Of a stretch of 64,000 nucleotides of DNA, positions 53,704-59,200 are shown piece after piece (the first letter of the stretch is position 1; each line of letters opens with the position of its first letter). This DNA is from Escherichia phage vb_EcoM-VR5. The position numbers and the translations under genes were made by a program. The stretch lies in the sequence record NC_028881.1; one strand, given 5' to 3'. The notes beneath the pieces are model-generated. The model did no database searches. It was given only the letters and a program-made list of their open reading frames with translations, and had not been told where the DNA came from.

Positions 53704-54368
53704 TGACTTTAACTGAAATGAAAAGCGGGTTAAAATCCCGCTTAGCCGATTATTTAGAATTATCTTATACCAGTGATAAGCCTACTGCTGTCGCTGACCA
53801 ACGTCCTATTGGTGGTCCTTCTGCAAACCAAACACAGAAGGGTGTTTATTTTCCTACCGTTCAGAGTGCAATAGATGATATTGCATTCCGAGCAGAACTT
53901 CCTGTGAACTCTGTTATTATTACTACAGAAAACAGAGCACCTGGTTTTATCCAACAATCAGATAAAATTACCTTTACTGGTTCCATTTCTTCCGGTGGTG
54001 AACTTGGCGACCCGGTTATTATTAAAGTGTTTGGGCTTCCTGTAGAGGTCATTGTTGGCGATTCATCTGTGCTAGTCGCATCTAAAGTAAATGATGTGTT
54101 TTTAGATGCAATTGCTAATAGCTATATTTTGGCTGAAACTGCTATTGATGCCTTAGACCAATCTACCTTGAATATTAAATACAATGACTATCAGAACCAT
54201 ATTTTTTCACCATATAAACAATCGGGTTGTACAATTTCCCATACTATAGTCCAGCAGCCAAGGTCTGGATACGGTAAGTGGGAATACTTAGGTAACTCTA
54301 CCCAATCGTTAGCAGGTGGTACAGTTAACGGCACGATTCCTTTATATTACTATAAGAGATTATATTAA
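53703..54368 (+). CDS. 11: baseplate wedge / short-tail-fibre attachment protein gp11
   Basis: Track ORF 53685..54368 trimmed to ATG overlapping the gene 10 stop (MTLTEMKSGLKSRLADYL...), 221 aa; T4 gp11 starts MSLLNNKAGVISRLADFL. Confidence 0.88.
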   Translation: MTLTEMKSGLKSRLADYLELSYTSDKPTAVADQRPIGGPSANQTQKGVYFPTVQSAIDDIAFRAELPVNSVIITTENRAPGFIQQSDKITFTGSISSGGELGDPVIIKVFGLPVEVIVGDSSVLVASKVNDVFLDAIANSYILAETAIDALDQSTLNIKYNDYQNHIFSPYKQSGCTISHTIVQQPRSGYGKWEYLGNSTQSLAGGTVNGTIPLYYYKRLY

Positions 54369-55894
54369 TGTCAACAAACACACTAAAACACATTAGTGAT
54401 AAATCGGAATTCAAATCATTCGACCCTACTGGGTCGAATTTCCCGCCTGATATTACTAATGTTCAAGAAGCATTGGCAACTATTTCATTAATCGGCGTCA
54501 CAGGTAATGTCCCTTCAGCCACAGAAACATCCCAAGGTATTATTCGTCTTGCCACAACACAAGAAGTAATGGATGGGTTGGATGCTTATAGTGCAGTGAC
54601 TCCGGCAACTTTAAAAGCACGTTTAGATATTCCTACTCAGGCAACAGAAACTTATGTAGGTATCACCCGTTATGCTACTAACGCTGAAGCTATAGCAGGC
54701 ACAGAGCCCCAGGCTGCAATCGTAGCAACCTCTTTGAAAGCGGTAATGGATTATACATTTGAGAACCGGTTATCAACAGAGAATGCTACAGGCGTTATCA
54801 AGATTTCAACTACACCTGCCGCATTAGCTGGTACAGATGATACCACAGCAATGTCCCCACTTAAAGTATCTCAAGCAATTGGTGCGGCCACAGCAGCGTT
54901 ACCGGTTTATTCTACGGCAACGACCACAAATGAAGGTTTAGTTCGTTTAGCAACAAACGGTGAAGTAGGTAATGGAAATCTTTCTGTCGGTATTGCTATT
55001 TCTCCTGCTGGCTTGGCCACATTAACTTCTACCGAATCACGAAGTGGGATTATTAAACTTGCCGGTTGGGATTTAGTGTCAAATGGTACTGACCATACTG
55101 CCGCTGTTACTCCGGCATCTTTGCTAGCTCGTACAGGTAATACAGGACGAATTGGGTTGGTGCGTTTAACTACTACAGTAGGTCAAGGTGACGGTAATAC
55201 TGCCTTAGCTTATAACGCTAACGTTATTTCTACTTCAGGTGGTGATATTTGGGGAACATTAAACGTTAACGGAGCCTTACGTCGTAATGGTGTTGATGTT
55301 GTTACACATGACCAATTATCAGATAGTGTTCCTGTTGGTACTATTTGTATGTGGGGTGGAAATGAAGGTAATATCCCAGGTAAATGGCGAGCTTGTGTAG
55401 GTGGGACTTATACTGGTGGTGCATATTTAAATGCTGTTGGTGGGCGTTGGGGATGGTGGGGTGCTATTCCGGATTTCCGTGGATTATATCCTCGCGGCGC
55501 TAACATGGTTGGTGGATATTCTGAAGGTGAAGTAAACCCACATATTGCAGGCAATCGTGGTGAAGACGGTAAAGGCAAAGCCCGTTTAGGTAACGGTGTA
55601 GGTTCGTTCCCACAATCTTCAGTCCAGGCACAAGCATTAAGATATCATAAACACGCAGGTGGATTTGGCGAACACGATAACGCAGGCGCTTTTGGTAATA
55701 CTGCAAACCAAGGTTATGCAGGTACTCGTAAAGGCCTTGATTGGGACAACCGCAGTTATTATACCAACGAAGGTTTTGAGACAGTTGATGCATGGCAACG
55801 TGACGGTTATACCACACTGAACAGTGAAGGTCTTATTGCCAATGAAACACGTCCATGGACAATGTCCGTTCTTTTTATTATTAAAGTAGAATAA
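54368..55894 (+). CDS. 12: short tail fibre gp12
   Basis: 508 aa; MSTNTLKHISDKSEFKSFDPTG...FPPDITNVQEA...; C-terminal ...YHKHAGGFGEHDNAGAFGNT..RKGLDWDNRSY.TNEG...GNETRPW... is collinear with T4 gp12. Confidence 0.93.
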   Translation: MSTNTLKHISDKSEFKSFDPTGSNFPPDITNVQEALATISLIGVTGNVPSATETSQGIIRLATTQEVMDGLDAYSAVTPATLKARLDIPTQATETYVGITRYATNAEAIAGTEPQAAIVATSLKAVMDYTFENRLSTENATGVIKISTTPAALAGTDDTTAMSPLKVSQAIGAATAALPVYSTATTTNEGLVRLATNGEVGNGNLSVGIAISPAGLATLTSTESRSGIIKLAGWDLVSNGTDHTAAVTPASLLARTGNTGRIGLVRLTTTVGQGDGNTALAYNANVISTSGGDIWGTLNVNGALRRNGVDVVTHDQLSDSVPVGTICMWGGNEGNIPGKWRACVGGTYTGGAYLNAVGGRWGWWGAIPDFRGLYPRGANMVGGYSEGEVNPHIAGNRGEDGKGKARLGNGVGSFPQSSVQAQALRYHKHAGGFGEHDNAGAFGNTANQGYAGTRKGLDWDNRSYYTNEGFETVDAWQRDGYTTLNSEGLIANETRPWTMSVLFIIKVE

Positions 55895-55903
55895 GGGTAA
55901 AAA

Positions 55904-58210
55904 ATGATTAACAAATTGGAACTTAGTGAGTTACCATTTGTTGACGGCGTACCTGAAGCTCCTCAAAAGCGTATCCAATGGATACGCGAGGGTGATTGTA
56001 TGTCTGCAGCAAAAACAAAATACGGCAATGAAGGTAATTTGAACGCTGCTGCTTTAGGAGTTCAGAAAAACGTAGAAGCTCTTGATGCCAACGATTTAAA
56101 AACTGCTGATAAAGTTAATGAGCTTATAGAAAACGTTAATATTATCAATGATGCTTTAGAAGTGTCTACAGATATTTCGGTTATCCAACAAATTGAGAAA
56201 AACCGTGTTGATATTGTAAACCTTAAAAAAGTCACTGAAGATACAACAGAAAAATTGGACACTTTAACAACCAATTTTGATTTCTTGCGTGAAGATGTTG
56301 GATATCATGACCCTTTACAAGATGGTCCATATTTAACCGTACGTGAAAATATCGTTCTTCTTAAAAATGAAATTGGCCACTATGAAAACCAGGATATAAA
56401 CGGTAATCCTTTACCCCCTGGTGAAACTAATGAAGCCACTGGTATTAAACGCCGCATCATGGATAATACCACTGAATTGGTCGACCATCGCCTTCGTATT
56501 GATACTCTTGAAAGGAATTATGAAGATTCTGATGTAGGGCAATTAGGTATTAAACTAAATGAAATTCGTTCGGAACTAGGCCCTCATTCCGATACGGTAG
56601 GTAAACAACCTGCTTATACCCGAATTTCAGTATTAGAAACGGCTGCAGTTAATTTTAATACGGCTATTGACGAAATTAAGGATAATATTGATTTCTCCGG
56701 CATGCCTATAAAGGACCGAGTAACTACTTTAGAAAGCAAAACTCTTACCTTAGAAAATTCGGTTAACGTTGATTTAAAACCTAGAGTAACTTCTATAGAA
56801 ACTCAAATCGGGTCCGAGGCCACACCTGCATCTATTAACGGACGTTTAAGCGGACTTCGTACTGATGTAAATGATTTAAAAACCATTGTAGGTAATAGTT
56901 CTAGTGAAGGGCTTCGTTTCCAGGTTTCCGATATTAATCGACGCCTTGGTAGTGAAGTGTCTCCTGCTGCCGGGACGCTTAATAAGCGTTTGAATGATGT
57001 TATTATTCAAGCAAACCAATCCACCTCGTCTATCCAGGATATTCAGGTAGAAATTGGTAACAACCAATCCGGTATAAAAGGTACTTTGCTTAAGCTCACA
57101 AATAAGGTTGACGGGACGAACCCTAACGGAGCTACTGTAGAAGAACGTGGTCTTATTAATGCGGTTACTTCTTTAGAAACTCAAATGCAAGGTAAATTAG
57201 GGGACGCACCTTCTGATGGTAAACTCTATGCACGTCGAAATGCGGCATGGGCTGAAGTTGTTAATAACTCCATGGAAATAGAATCTGTTAAGGCCGATTT
57301 AGTTGTTACCAATGGTAAAGTGACCACTTTAACTTCTAGAGTCGATGGTAATGATACCTCAATTTCTTCTCTTGATACTCGCACCGGTGCTTTAAACACC
57401 TCGGTAGGAGAAATTAAAGCCGATATTGTTTTGTTAAAATCTAAAGATACAGATCAGGATAATCGTATTACTGCTTTGGAAGAAAGTGACGTAACAATTA
57501 ATGGCAAAATAACGGCATTAGAAACCAAGACAGATACCACAGATTCTGACGTTACTGCTTTGGCTTTAGATGTGAGTTCTATAGAATCGCAATTAATTCC
57601 TATTAAAGCTGATATAACCAAGAATAAAGGTGATATCGTTACTTTAACCGGGCGAGTAGCAGCCAACGAAGGTGAAATTACTGATATTAAATTAGATACC
57701 GCTAAAATAGCTCCTTTGACTACTAGAGTTACTACCGCTGAAGGTAAAATTTCTACTCTTGAAACAGGTTTAGCCGCAGTTAAAGTTGAATCGGATAAAG
57801 TTGCAGGAATTGATACTCGCCTTGGCACTGCAGAAGGTGACATCGGAACACTTAAAACAGGTTTAGCTGCTGTTAAAGTCGAATCAGATAAAGTAGCGGC
57901 TATAGATACCCGTTTGGGTGTTGTTGAAGTTGAATCAGGTAAAGTAGCAGGAATCGATACCCGTTTAGCCACTGTTGAAGGTGAAGTTAGTACTCTTGAA
58001 ACAGGTTTAGCTGCTGTTAAAGTCGAATCAGATAAAGTTTCAGGAATTGATACTCGTTTATCTGCAGCCGAAGCTAAAATCACTGCACTAGAAACTGAAC
58101 TAGGTAAACGTCCACCGGTGGCTCCTGCTGCAGACGGACTTCCGTATGTTCTGGTTGATAATGCATGGGTGCTATTGTCAGATTTTGTGACTTTAAACCC
58201 GGCACCATAA
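55904..58210 (+). CDS. wac: fibritin (whisker antigen control, wac), expanded coiled coil
   Basis: 768 aa versus about 487 aa in T4; long coiled coil with tandem repeats; C-terminal foldon-like ...GLPYVLVDNAWVLLSDFV. Confidence 0.88.
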   Translation: MINKLELSELPFVDGVPEAPQKRIQWIREGDCMSAAKTKYGNEGNLNAAALGVQKNVEALDANDLKTADKVNELIENVNIINDALEVSTDISVIQQIEKNRVDIVNLKKVTEDTTEKLDTLTTNFDFLREDVGYHDPLQDGPYLTVRENIVLLKNEIGHYENQDINGNPLPPGETNEATGIKRRIMDNTTELVDHRLRIDTLERNYEDSDVGQLGIKLNEIRSELGPHSDTVGKQPAYTRISVLETAAVNFNTAIDEIKDNIDFSGMPIKDRVTTLESKTLTLENSVNVDLKPRVTSIETQIGSEATPASINGRLSGLRTDVNDLKTIVGNSSSEGLRFQVSDINRRLGSEVSPAAGTLNKRLNDVIIQANQSTSSIQDIQVEIGNNQSGIKGTLLKLTNKVDGTNPNGATVEERGLINAVTSLETQMQGKLGDAPSDGKLYARRNAAWAEVVNNSMEIESVKADLVVTNGKVTTLTSRVDGNDTSISSLDTRTGALNTSVGEIKADIVLLKSKDTDQDNRITALEESDVTINGKITALETKTDTTDSDVTALALDVSSIESQLIPIKADITKNKGDIVTLTGRVAANEGEITDIKLDTAKIAPLTTRVTTAEGKISTLETGLAAVKVESDKVAGIDTRLGTAEGDIGTLKTGLAAVKVESDKVAAIDTRLGVVEVESGKVAGIDTRLATVEGEVSTLETGLAAVKVESDKVSGIDTRLSAAEAKITALETELGKRPPVAPAADGLPYVLVDNAWVLLSDFVTLNPAP
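57750..58075 (+). repeat. tandem ~93-nt (31-aa) repeats inside the fibritin gene (approximate)
   Basis: About 3.5 copies of gaaacaggtttagc.gc.gttaaagt.gaatc.gataaagt.gc.g.aat.gatac.cg, encoding TLETGLAAVKVESDKVAGIDTRLG.AEG.I. Confidence 0.7.
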
Positions 58211-58211
58211 T

Positions 58212-58233
58212 AAAAGGGCTTCGGCCCTTTTTT
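58212..58233 (+). terminator. rho-independent terminator after wac (approximate)
   Basis: AAAAGGGC-TTCG-GCCCTTTTTT (UUCG tetraloop plus U tract). Confidence 0.75.
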
Positions 58234-58235
58234 GC

Positions 58236-58243
58236 TATAAATA
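58236..58243 (+). promoter_or_regulatory. late promoter TATAAATA for gene 13 (approximate)
   Basis: CTATAAATACGG about 22 nt upstream of the gene 13 ATG. Confidence 0.65.
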
Positions 58244-58264
58244 CGGTTATTAGAGGAATAAAAC

Positions 58265-59200
58265 ATGGCAAGTGAATCGTATAACCCTAAACAACTCAAG
58301 GACGCAATCTTACGTCGCCTGGGTGCGCCAATAACAAATATTGAAGTAACTACTGACCAAGTATATGATTGTATCCAGAGGGCTCTAGAGCTCTACGGTG
58401 AGTATCATTACAATGGCTACAATAAAGGCTATCAGGCTTTTTATATTGGCCATGATGACGAAGAAAAATTTCGAAACGGGGTATTTGACCTTAAAGGACG
58501 TAATATATTTGCGGTGACACAAATTTTAAGAACTAATGTCGGTTCTTTAACATCTATGGACGGGCAAGCAACTTATCCATGGTTTACCGACTTTGTATTA
58601 GGTTTGGCAGGTATTAATGGAGGTCTCGGGTCTTCATGTAATAGTTTCGGCCCTAATGCCTTTGGTGCAGACCTTGGATATTTTACCCAATTGATGCAGT
58701 ATCGTTCTATGATGCAAGACCTTTTAGTTCCACTACCAGATTATTGGTATAACGATGCCACAGAACAATTAAAAGTAATGGGTAACTTTGTTAAAGGCGA
58801 TTTTATCGTAATTGAAGTTTATACTCGCTCTTTTAACGGAGTTGATTCCATGGTAGGAAATACCGCAGGGTACGGCTATGCTTCCGGTGGCTGTGATGAA
58901 AACGAATGGAGTCCAGGGGCTATTTGGGACAATCCTGCACGTCGAATTTCAGGCATGAGAGCTGGCGAGGACCTTGGTCTACAAGACGGTGCATATAACA
59001 ACCGTTGGGTTAAAGATTACGCTACTGCATTAGTTAAAGAAGTCAATGGCAATATTCTAGCCAAACACCAGGGTATGCAATTGGCAGGTGGAACCACTGT
59101 AGATGGTATCCGATTAATTGAAGAAGCTCGTTTAGAAAAAGAACGTCTTCGCGAAGAATTAGATTTGCTCGACCCACCAACACCTATTTTAATTGGATAA
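58265..59200 (+). CDS. 13: neck protein gp13
   Basis: 311 aa (T4 gp13 309 aa). Confidence 0.9.

What the first reader, a model, noticed from the sequence alone, without database searches (positions are those of the whole stretch)
55904..58210. Fibritin expanded to 768 aa by recent in-frame tandem repeats
The wac gene is much longer than the T4 version as I recall it (about 487 aa). The excess sits in the coiled-coil rod and includes about 3.5 nearly identical 93-nt repeats (57750-58075) encoding TLETGLAAVKVESDKVAGIDTRLG... The foldon-like C-terminus is retained. Repeat gain in fibritin would change whisker length and the environmental sensing of tail-fibre deployment.
Basis: seen in the sequence. 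Interest (0 to 1): 0.4.

Follow-up and report, generated by a model that had tools for sequence, protein, structure and literature searches.

The report
Long two-foldon phage whisker protein
This is the neck-whisker (fibritin) gene of the already sequenced coliphage VR5; it is long because a second coiled-coil rod and a second trimerisation knob follow the usual one, a form already described for JS98-like phages, and the tandem repeats are old, diverged and explain only part of the extra length.

Summary
The ORF (55904-58210, +, 768 aa) is real and is wac, lying between genes 12 and 13 of a Dhakavirus (JS98-like T4-type phage). Its product is 768/768 identical to the deposited fibritin of phage vB_EcoM-VR5.

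In-frame repeats exist and are far beyond chance. They are not "nearly identical". Five units cover aa 595-735, in a 31/31/17/31/31-aa layout, and share 69-80% nucleotide identity. Each core is closer to its positional counterpart in other phages (85-90%) than to its own paralogues (75-81%). The duplications therefore predate the divergence of these phages.

The extra length over T4 (487 aa) is a roughly 310-aa C-terminal module:
- Residues 5-428 are colinear with T4 residues 4-430.
- A conserved internal foldon-like hairpin follows at aa 430-452.
- A coiled-coil spacer comes next, whose last 141 aa hold the repeats.
- A second, terminal foldon closes the protein at aa 737-762.

This two-foldon "JS98-type" fibritin with a variable-length spacer is already published (Letarova et al. 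2013, citing Latypov et al. 2007). Relatives range from 515 to 827 aa. Among the forms of 689-827 aa, lengths differ by whole units or whole heptads. The gene is also a recombination mosaic. Verdict: ordinary and already known, with minor new detail on the repeat cassette.

The parts
55904..58210 (+). wac (fibritin / neck whisker) CDS, 768 aa plus stop codon
   Evidence: ORF list. phmmer against T4 fibritin 2bsg_A gives E=3e-73. The gene is syntenic with wac of JS98, between genes 12 and 13. The product is 768/768 identical to VR5 fibritin.
55916..57187 (+). N-terminal neck-attachment domain plus segmented coiled-coil shaft, aa 5-428, colinear with T4 fibritin aa 4-430
   Evidence: A single phmmer alignment of 246 bits. 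The N-terminus also matches mini-fibritin 1ox3 and 2ibl over aa 6-68.
57191..57259 (+). Internal foldon-like beta-hairpin motif, aa 430-452 (GKLGDAPSDGKLYARRNAAWAEV), at the position where single-foldon fibritins end
   Evidence: Pfam Fibritin_C covers aa 371-454, matching profile positions 2-92 of 93 (E=7.6e-30). The fragment alone scores 40.8 bits. Its local score against the T4 foldon is 53, against a shuffle maximum of 38. D, A, P, D, K, Y, R, W and E are invariant across 8 double-foldon fibritins of 30-70% identity. AlphaFold2 predicts helix, hairpin (YARR / AWAE), helix. The hairpin superposes on foldon structures at 0.8 A over 19 residues, but the Foldseek E-values are not significant.
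57266..57685 (+). Non-repetitive part of the coiled-coil spacer, aa 455-594, in one continuous heptad phase
   Evidence: The home-made heptad-phase scan shows a constant phase for scan windows starting at aa 455-592. Coiled-coil Pfam families match weakly, below their cut-offs. This segment is 72-79% identical to JS98 but 88-91% identical to CLBP2, dhabil and UP19, so it is a recombinant segment.
57686..57778 (+). Repeat unit u0, aa 595-625 (IKLDTAKIAPLTTRVTTAEGKISTLETGLAA), a degenerate older copy
   Evidence: The HMM built from 31-aa units matches aa 600-625 with i-E=3.6e-12. It is 57-66% nucleotide-identical to the other units.
57779..57871 (+). Repeat unit u1, 31 aa (aa 626-656)
   Evidence: HMM i-E=2e-24. 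Its core is 87.5% identical to JS98 unit 1 and 75-81% identical to its own paralogues.
57872..57922 (+). Repeat unit u2, a truncated 17-aa unit (aa 657-673), which is 31 aa minus two heptads
   Evidence: HMM i-E=1.5e-13. TRF period 51. A 17-aa unit occupies the same position in EcWhh-1, JS10, EcoM_005, IME08 and IME341.
57923..58015 (+). Repeat unit u3, 31 aa (aa 674-704)
   Evidence: HMM i-E=5.4e-22. Its core is 89.6% identical to unit 3 of JS10, EcWhh-1 and IME341.
58016..58108 (+). Repeat unit u4, the terminal 31-aa unit (aa 705-735). It is a hybrid with an internal-type core (SGIDTRLS) and a terminal-type tail (AAEAKITALETELGK)
   Evidence: HMM i-E=2.9e-16. The middle 24 nt resemble internal units (mean 72%) more than terminal units (mean 57%). 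The last 45 nt are 98% identical to the terminal unit of EcoM_005.
58112..58189 (+). Terminal foldon, aa 737-762 (PPVAPAADGLPYVLVDNAWVLLSDFV)
   Evidence: Local score against the T4 foldon is 58, against a shuffle maximum of 38. phmmer second domains align it to T4 aa 432-484 and to 1aa0 and 1avy. It is conserved in all 18 relatives.
58212..58233 (+). Terminator-like hairpin after wac: AAAAGGGC-UUCG-GCCCUUUU followed by a U run
   Evidence: Read directly from the sequence. The RNA fold gives -11.1 kcal/mol, z=-2.5. The consensus terminator scan did not list it.
58236..58243 (+). TATAAATA, the T4 late-promoter consensus, 21 nt upstream of the gene 13 ATG at 58265
   Evidence: Pattern search. 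The window-wide count is not above chance, so only the position is suggestive.

Best explanation
The gene encodes a JS98-type fibritin. This is the trimeric collar/whisker fibre of a Dhakavirus, and here it is the fibre of phage vB_EcoM-VR5.

Architecture:
- The N-terminal neck-binding domain and a segmented coiled-coil shaft are colinear with the whole T4 shaft (aa 1-428).
- An internal foldon-like beta-hairpin node (aa 430-452) sits at the position of the T4 foldon.
- A second parallel coiled-coil rod of about 280 aa follows (aa 455-735).
- A second, terminal foldon (aa 737-762) presumably nucleates trimerisation from the C-terminus, as in T4.

The distal 141 aa of the second rod form a cassette array of coiled-coil units. 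Each unit is n heptads plus one 3-residue register shift at the VKVESDK motif (31 = 4x7+3; 17 = 2x7+3). The units arose by old duplications and are kept similar at the protein level.

In-register unequal homologous recombination between units, and between co-infecting relatives, adds or removes whole units or whole heptads. This would change rod length by an estimated 2.5-4.6 nm per step without breaking the coiled-coil register. That process produced the length series from 689 to 827 aa seen in the genus.

What is shown: the domain order, both foldon motifs, the repeat structure and its age, the copy-number polymorphism and the mosaicism. What is inferred: trimer folding, the recombination mechanism and any effect on long-tail-fibre retraction.
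For: - Identity and synteny.
- Colinearity with T4 aa 4-430.
- Internal foldon: and 56 (supportive only).
- Terminal foldon.
- In 59 homologues the first foldon motif sits at aa 432-463. Fibritins of 455-459 aa end just after it. Foldon-to-foldon distances run 52, 64-66, 81-83, 92, 108, 191, 257, 271, 274, 288, 305 (this window) and 336.
- Published description of the JS98-type fibritin, with two T4-like foldon motifs and a coiled-coil spacer of variable length that folds into trimers on its own: PMC3797505.
- Repeat units and their divergence.
- Positional counterparts in other phages are closer than paralogues.
- Unit layouts in 18 relatives, with 0-5 cores; among relatives that carry cores, lengths range from 689 to 827 aa and differ by combinations of 17, 21 and 31 aa.
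- Heptad phase shifts by +3 at each unit.
- Hybrid terminal unit.
- A 40-nt exact tract sits inside units that are otherwise about 76% identical. This suggests a local conversion or crossover.
- Segmental mosaicism of the gene.
Against: - No structure of a JS98-type fibritin exists. The AlphaFold2 model is a monomer from a shallow 8-sequence alignment, with mean pLDDT 75.7 and only one of five models above 60.
- Foldseek E-values for the hairpin are not significant, at 0.23 or higher.
- Pfam did not report the terminal foldon.
- The heptad analysis is a crude home-made score.
- The hybrid-unit argument rests on 24 nt.
- Nothing here shows which foldon contacts the long tail fibre, or that length variation has a phenotype.
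Confidence: 0.85

Rival explanations
1. One reading: a T4-sized fibritin was recently lengthened in this isolate by tandem duplication of a 93-nt unit.
For: In-frame periodicity of 93 nt is present. One 40-nt exact tract is shared by two units. Copy number differs among relatives.
Against: Units are only 69-80% identical and show many synonymous differences. Each core is closer to its positional counterpart in other genomes. The same layout occurs in EcWhh-1, and with one extra unit in IME08 and IME341. Relatives with a single core are still 689 aa. The excess over T4 is a module that follows an internal foldon.
Confidence: 0.04
2. The repeat count is an assembly artefact, through collapse or expansion of the array.
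For: Repeats are a classic source of misassembly, and no reads are available here.
Against: The longest exact direct repeat is 40 nt and the next is 21 nt, shorter than ordinary sequencing reads. The frame is intact through to a conserved foldon. An independently assembled phage, EcWhh-1, has the same 31/17/31/31 layout and the same 768 aa. All relatives differ by whole units or whole heptads.
Confidence: 0.03
3. The array is an adaptive 'ruler'. Under this reading, unit number is selected to match whisker reach to tail-fibre geometry or to the conditions under which fibres are released. VR5 is, from my recollection of the literature, a low-temperature phage.
For: Length changes keep the coiled-coil register. 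The protein sequence of the units is conserved despite synonymous divergence. There is a wide spectrum of spacer lengths. In T4 the C-terminal part of fibritin contacts the fibre near its knee (PMC3797505).
Against: No phenotype data exist. Register-preserving indels are also what purifying selection on any coiled coil would let through. Spacer length does not track the phylogeny of the N-terminal part and looks shuffled by recombination. The source paper says it is unclear whether fibritin variants share T4's sensing role.
Confidence: 0.12

Closest known systems
JS98-type fibritin (gpwac of phages JS98, JS98-C3 and JS10; Letarova et al. 2013 Ecol Evol, PMC3797505, citing Latypov et al. 2007)
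   Same: Two T4-like foldon motifs separated by a coiled-coil spacer of variable length. The N-terminal domain and shaft are homologous to T4. The gene has the same position between genes 12 and 13. The window protein is 89-93% identical to the JS98, JS10 and EcWhh-1 fibritins and identical to the deposited VR5 protein.
   Different: Nothing categorical. This allele has its own unit layout: A-B-C plus a hybrid terminal unit with SGIDTRLS in place of ADLGTRLT. It also carries a spacer segment of the CLBP2, dhabil and UP19 type on a JS98-type N-terminal part.
T4 fibritin (gpwac, 487 aa; PDB 1AA0, 1AVY, 2BSG, 3J2O; foldon 1RFO)
   Same: The N-terminal domain and segmented coiled-coil shaft are colinear over aa 5-428 against T4 aa 4-430. 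Foldon motif APxDGxxYxxxxxxW is shared.
   Different: T4 ends at its single foldon. Here the equivalent foldon is internal and lacks the WVLLSTFL tail. It is followed by about 310 more residues with a second foldon.
Short-spacer double-foldon fibritins (Bp7, QL01 and WG01 at 529 aa; fDHCT2 at 515 aa; Yersinia phage P8 at 558 aa)
   Same: They have the same two foldons and the same terminal ...KITALETELAKRPPVAPxADGLPYVLVDNAWVLLS module.
   Different: Their spacer is only about 50-90 aa and lacks the VKVESDK units. QL01 looks like a deletion from LTSRV to TTAE.KITALETEL.
Other trimeric phage coiled-coil fibres, such as the P22 tail needle gp26 (PDB 4LIN)
   Same: Weak sequence similarity of spacer aa 500-628 to gp26 (E=3.3e-6). 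Both are parallel trimeric coiled coils with register discontinuities.
   Different: The similarity is probably compositional or coiled-coil-driven. The terminal domains, virion location and function all differ.

Membership tests
Fibritin (gpwac) of T4-like phages | Conserved N-terminal domain of about 50 aa that attaches the fibre to the neck | tested here: met
   aa 5-68 align to T4 fibritin and to mini-fibritin 1ox3 and 2ibl (E about 1e-13).
Fibritin (gpwac) of T4-like phages | Long segmented coiled-coil shaft homologous to that of T4 | tested here: met
   One colinear alignment of aa 5-428 to T4 aa 4-430, 246 bits. Pfam Fibritin_C E=7.6e-30.
Fibritin (gpwac) of T4-like phages | Gene located between gene 12 (short tail fibre) and gene 13 (neck) | tested here: met
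   ORFs 54368-55894 and 58265-59200 flank it. The order is the same in JS98.
Fibritin (gpwac) of T4-like phages | Forms trimeric collar/whisker fibres on the virion and assists long-tail-fibre attachment and retraction | not testable with these tools
   This needs virion structure or genetics. The literature reports that JS98 fibritin self-trimerises (PMC3797505).
JS98-type fibritin | Two T4-like foldon motifs | tested here: met
   Local scores are 53 (aa 430-449) and 58 (aa 737-762), against a shuffle maximum of 38. Pfam matches the internal one. A hairpin is predicted there.
JS98-type fibritin | Coiled-coil spacer of variable length between the two foldons | tested here: met
   Heptad pattern across aa 455-735. 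The foldon-to-foldon distance is 305 aa here and 52-336 aa in homologues.
Recent tandem duplication / VNTR-like contingency repeat | Copies nearly identical at the DNA level, and closer to each other than to orthologous copies elsewhere | tested here: not met
   Units are 69-80% identical to each other. Paralogous cores are 75-81% identical, against 85-90% for positional counterparts.
Recent tandem duplication / VNTR-like contingency repeat | Copy number differs between related isolates | tested here: met
   There are 0-5 cores in 18 relatives, and lengths run from 529 to 827 aa. These relatives are only 77-93% identical, so this reflects old polymorphism and recombination rather than rapid change.

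The most novel reading that the evidence does not exclude
The stammer-punctuated 31/17/21-aa cassette array between the two foldons is a selected, recombination-driven length-tuning device. Under this reading the internal foldon marks the T4-equivalent contact with the tail-fibre knee. The adjustable second rod would set how far the terminal foldon reaches along the distal half-fibre. Different unit numbers would then give different thresholds for tail-fibre release, for example at low temperature in VR5.
Probability: 0.08. Interest if true: 0.45.

Novelty: already known. Interest (0 to 1): 0.12.

Why it matters
It matters little as a discovery. The gene is a deposited, annotated fibritin of phage VR5, and its two-foldon architecture with a variable spacer was already described by 2013 (Letarova et al. 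2013, citing Latypov et al. 2007).

The useful outcome is a correction. The extra length is a second rod plus a second foldon, not a recent repeat burst.

Three details go slightly beyond the published one-line statement that the spacer 'may vary in length':
- Units equal heptads plus a 3-residue register shift.
- Indels are always whole units or whole heptads.
- Hybrid units and segmental mosaicism are present.

These could guide engineering of foldon-capped coiled-coil rods of defined length, or experiments on whisker length and tail-fibre retraction.

Tried and rejected
- A protein search with only the C-terminal 339 aa returned just 10 hits, all short-spacer forms or unrelated. The 8000-candidate word filter was swamped by the repetitive query. 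The full-length query worked.
- An exact-sequence contig look-up found nothing, although the identical VR5 protein is in the protein collection.
- The 'phages' BLAST collection does not return the VR5 record itself. Its best hits are 90-93%.
- Pfam did not detect the terminal foldon in a 69-aa fragment. It was shown by direct alignment instead.
- Foldseek on the model gave no significant hit. The foldon matches are only suggestive, at 19 residues, 0.8 A and E above 1.
- The HMM of the 31-aa unit found no significant further copies upstream of aa 600. I therefore dropped the idea that the whole spacer is built from the same unit.
- The consensus terminator scan missed the hairpin after wac. It was confirmed by folding.
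- There is no TATAAATA inside wac, so nothing supports separate expression of the extension.
- A literature search for 'fibritin' plus 'Dhakavirus' found nothing. One search failed on a term that was too short.
- Assembly artefact and recent-expansion readings were considered and rejected; see the rival explanations.
Full report
**1. What is at the coordinates**

The ORF list gives one long + strand ORF at 55904..58210 of 768 aa. A 508-aa ORF (54368-55894) lies upstream, and ORFs of 311 and 257 aa lie downstream.

Megablast places the region in Dhakavirus, the JS98-like T4-type coliphages. The gene is annotated there as wac / fibritin neck whisker, between gene 12 and gene 13.

Nucleotide identity to the phage records available is only 86-93%. 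However, the protein is 768/768 identical to 'fibritin/whisker protein [Escherichia phage vb_EcoM-VR5]' from a 170,473-bp contig. Dhakavirus vr5 is a recognised species. The window therefore almost certainly comes from VR5, and this gene is already deposited and named.

**2. The repeats**

TRF finds overlapping arrays with periods 93, 51 and 144 between 57779 and 58095, at 74-81% matches. The best ungapped off-diagonal self-match of the gene scores 59 at offset 144. Codon shuffles gave a mean of 12 and a maximum of 17 in 100. The repeat is real.

At the protein level the layout is as follows:
- u0, aa 595-625: IKLDTAKIAPLTTRVTTAEGKISTLETGLAA, a degenerate copy.
- u1, aa 626-656: VKVESDKVAGIDTRLGTAEGDIGTLKTGLAA.
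- u2, aa 657-673: VKVESDKVAAIDTRLGV, only 17 aa.
- u3, aa 674-704: VEVESGKVAGIDTRLATVEGEVSTLETGLAA.
- u4, aa 705-735: VKVESDKVSGIDTRLSAAEAKITALETELGK.

An HMM of the units finds no further significant copy upstream.

The copies are similar as proteins but not as DNA. The 93-nt units are 69-80% identical and the cores 72-80%. Only 6-10 of 12-15 same-amino-acid codons are identical between copies. 'Nearly identical' is therefore wrong at the nucleotide level. The longest exact repeat is 40 nt and the next is 21 nt.

**3. Age of the duplications**

I extracted wac from 18 relatives and compared every 48-nt core.
- Each of the window's four cores is closer to a core in another genome (85-90%) than to its own paralogues (75-81%). 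For cores 1-3 the best match is the positional counterpart.
- The 31/17/31/31 layout recurs in EcWhh-1, which is also 768 aa.
- The same layout with one more unit recurs in JS10, IME08 and IME341.

The duplications therefore predate the divergence of these phages. They are not a recent event in this isolate.

There are two small signs of later intra-array exchange:
- A 40-nt perfectly identical tract (57855-57894 and 57999-38) sits within 144-nt copies that are otherwise about 76% identical. By my own estimate this is very unlikely by chance.
- The terminal unit is a hybrid. Its middle 24 nt are of the internal-unit type (mean 72% to internal units, 57% to terminal units). Its last 45 nt are 98% identical to the terminal unit of EcoM_005.

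**4. Why the protein is longer than T4's**

phmmer against PDB sequences aligns aa 5-428 in one colinear block with T4 fibritin aa 4-430 of 487 (E=3e-73). Pfam Fibritin_C covers aa 371-454, reaching profile position 92 of 93. The end of that model, which corresponds to the foldon, thus falls on an internal motif, GKLGDAPSDGKLYARRNAAWAEV (aa 430-452).

Evidence for the internal foldon:
- A direct local alignment of the 27-aa T4 foldon against the protein gives two outstanding matches. They score 58 at aa 737-762 and 53 at aa 430-449. The maximum over 300 shuffles of the protein was 38.
- The internal fragment alone scores 40.8 bits on Fibritin_C.
- In an alignment of eight double-foldon fibritins of 30-70% identity, the motif residues D, A, P, D, K, Y, R, W and E are invariant.
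- AlphaFold2 on that alignment predicts helix, beta-hairpin (YARR / AWAE), long helix, with mean pLDDT 75.7.
- The hairpin superposes on many foldon structures (1RFO, 1NAY, 4NCW and others) at 0.8-0.9 A over 19 residues. The Foldseek E-values are not significant for so small an element.

The excess over T4 is thus a C-terminal module of about 310 aa: a second rod (aa 455-735) plus a second foldon. The repeat array forms only the distal 141 aa of that rod. Relative to PSD2002, the spacer-bearing relative with the fewest cores (689 aa, u0 plus the terminal unit), the window has 79 extra residues.

**5. This architecture is published**

Letarova et al. 2013 (PMC3797505) make the following points, citing Latypov et al. 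2007:
- They define a 'JS98-type' fibritin with two T4-like foldon motifs.
[quoted passage not shown] - JS98 fibritin folds into trimers using only the foldon motifs.

The survey here fits that description. Among 59 homologues the first foldon motif sits at aa 432-463. Fibritins of 455-459 aa end just after it. Foldon-to-foldon distances are 52, 64-66, 81-83, 92, 108, 191, 257, 271, 274, 288, 305 (this window) and 336 aa. tblastn finds the long spacer in Dhakavirus, and at 64% identity in VR26- and MN01-like phages.

**6. Extra detail found here**

*Length classes.* Dhakavirus wac lengths are 529, 689, 720, 734, 737, 751, 768, 772, 799 and 827 aa. From 689 aa upward, the differences are combinations of 31, 17 (31 minus 14) and 21 aa.

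*Heptad phase.* A simple heptad-phase scan shows one continuous phase from aa 455 until the repeat array begins (scan windows starting at aa 455-592). The phase then shifts by +3 at every unit. Each unit is thus n heptads plus one 3-residue discontinuity at VKVESDK. All observed length variants preserve this logic.

*Mosaicism.* aa 1-455 are 94-97% nucleotide-identical to JS98, NC-G and UP19, but about 70% identical to IME08, CLBP2 and dhabil. aa 501-625 are 72-79% identical to JS98 but 88-91% identical to CLBP2, dhabil and UP19. The repeat zone is no more than 85% identical to anything sampled.

These points suggest that homologous, in-register recombination between units and between phages drives the length variation. 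That mechanism is inferred, not shown.

**7. Function**

From the literature on T4 (summarised in PMC3797505):
- Fibritin trimerises from its C-terminal foldon.
- It attaches by its N-terminus to the neck.
- It helps long-tail-fibre attachment.
- It holds the fibres in the 'up' position through its C-terminal part.

For this protein I infer the same fibre with an additional distal rod. I estimate that rod at about 40-45 nm, assuming about 0.15 nm per residue in a coiled coil. Whether the internal or the terminal foldon contacts the tail fibre is unknown. Whether unit number matters is also unknown, and the source paper itself says the roles of the fibritin variants are unclear.

**8. Assembly artefact**

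No reads are available, so this cannot be tested directly. It is unlikely for three reasons:
- Exact repeats are at most 40 nt.
- The frame runs into a conserved foldon.
- An independent genome, EcWhh-1, has the same layout and length.

**9. Verdict**

The ORF, its length, the in-frame repeats and the terminal foldon are all real. The repeats are diverged, however, and have a 31/17-aa substructure.

The gene is wac, it is longer than in T4, and copy number varies among relatives. The repeats are neither recent nor the main cause of the extra length, and the key feature, a second internal foldon, was missed.

The thing itself is an already known kind and an already deposited gene. Interest is low.

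Noticed in passing
window 55904-58210 (whole window by implication): The wac product is 100% identical over 768 aa to the deposited fibritin of Escherichia phage vB_EcoM-VR5 (170,473-bp contig; species Dhakavirus vr5). The phage BLAST collection returns only hits of 93% identity or less, and the exact-sequence contig look-up finds nothing. The source genome seems to be withheld from those two resources.
   Followed up: partly
window 57454-58299, minus strand: A 281-aa antisense ORF runs across the coiled-coil and repeat zone of wac. An equivalent antisense 'hypothetical protein' is annotated in phage IME540. It is probably a spurious ORF allowed by the biased codon content of the coiled-coil sequence.
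   Followed up: no
window 58212-58243: A GC-rich hairpin with a UUCG loop and a U run lies directly after the wac stop codon (-11.1 kcal/mol, z=-2.5). It is followed by TATAAATA, the T4 late-promoter consensus, 21 nt before the gene 13 ATG. wac and gene 13 may therefore be separate late transcription units.
   Followed up: partly
protein P0010 (392 aa, ENA metagenome; not in the window): A protein with a signal-peptide-like N-terminus carries repeated units...TTVSGIDGRLTTAEGEIDTLQAGIA..., that resemble the fibritin 31-aa unit (E=3.6e-8). This could be a bacterial surface coiled coil sharing the unit, or convergence.
   Followed up: no
window 57191-57259 (aa 427-453): The internal foldon-like motif also weakly matches a DUF2793 baseplate protein of Pseudomonas phage JBD30 (PDB 8rk3). 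phmmer gives E=0.066, and it is the top Foldseek hit with 23 columns at 56% identity. Foldon-like hairpins may be more widespread in phage fibres.
   Followed up: no
loci L017 (QL01) and proteins P0001-P0009, P0027-P0035: Fibritins of 515-558 aa have two foldons only 52-92 aa apart. Fibritins of 455-459 aa (Pectobacterium phage PM2-like) stop right after the first foldon position. Together they form a near-continuous series of spacer lengths. QL01 looks like a clean deletion from LTSRV to TTAE.KITALETEL.
   Followed up: partly
window 57404-57778 (wac aa 501-625) versus 55904-57268 (aa 1-455): There is a sharp switch of nearest relatives inside the gene. The N-terminal part is of the JS98 and NC-G type (94-97% against about 70% to IME08 and CLBP2). 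The spacer is of the CLBP2, dhabil and UP19 type (88-91% against 72-79% to JS98). This indicates recombination between Dhakavirus lineages within wac.
   Followed up: yes
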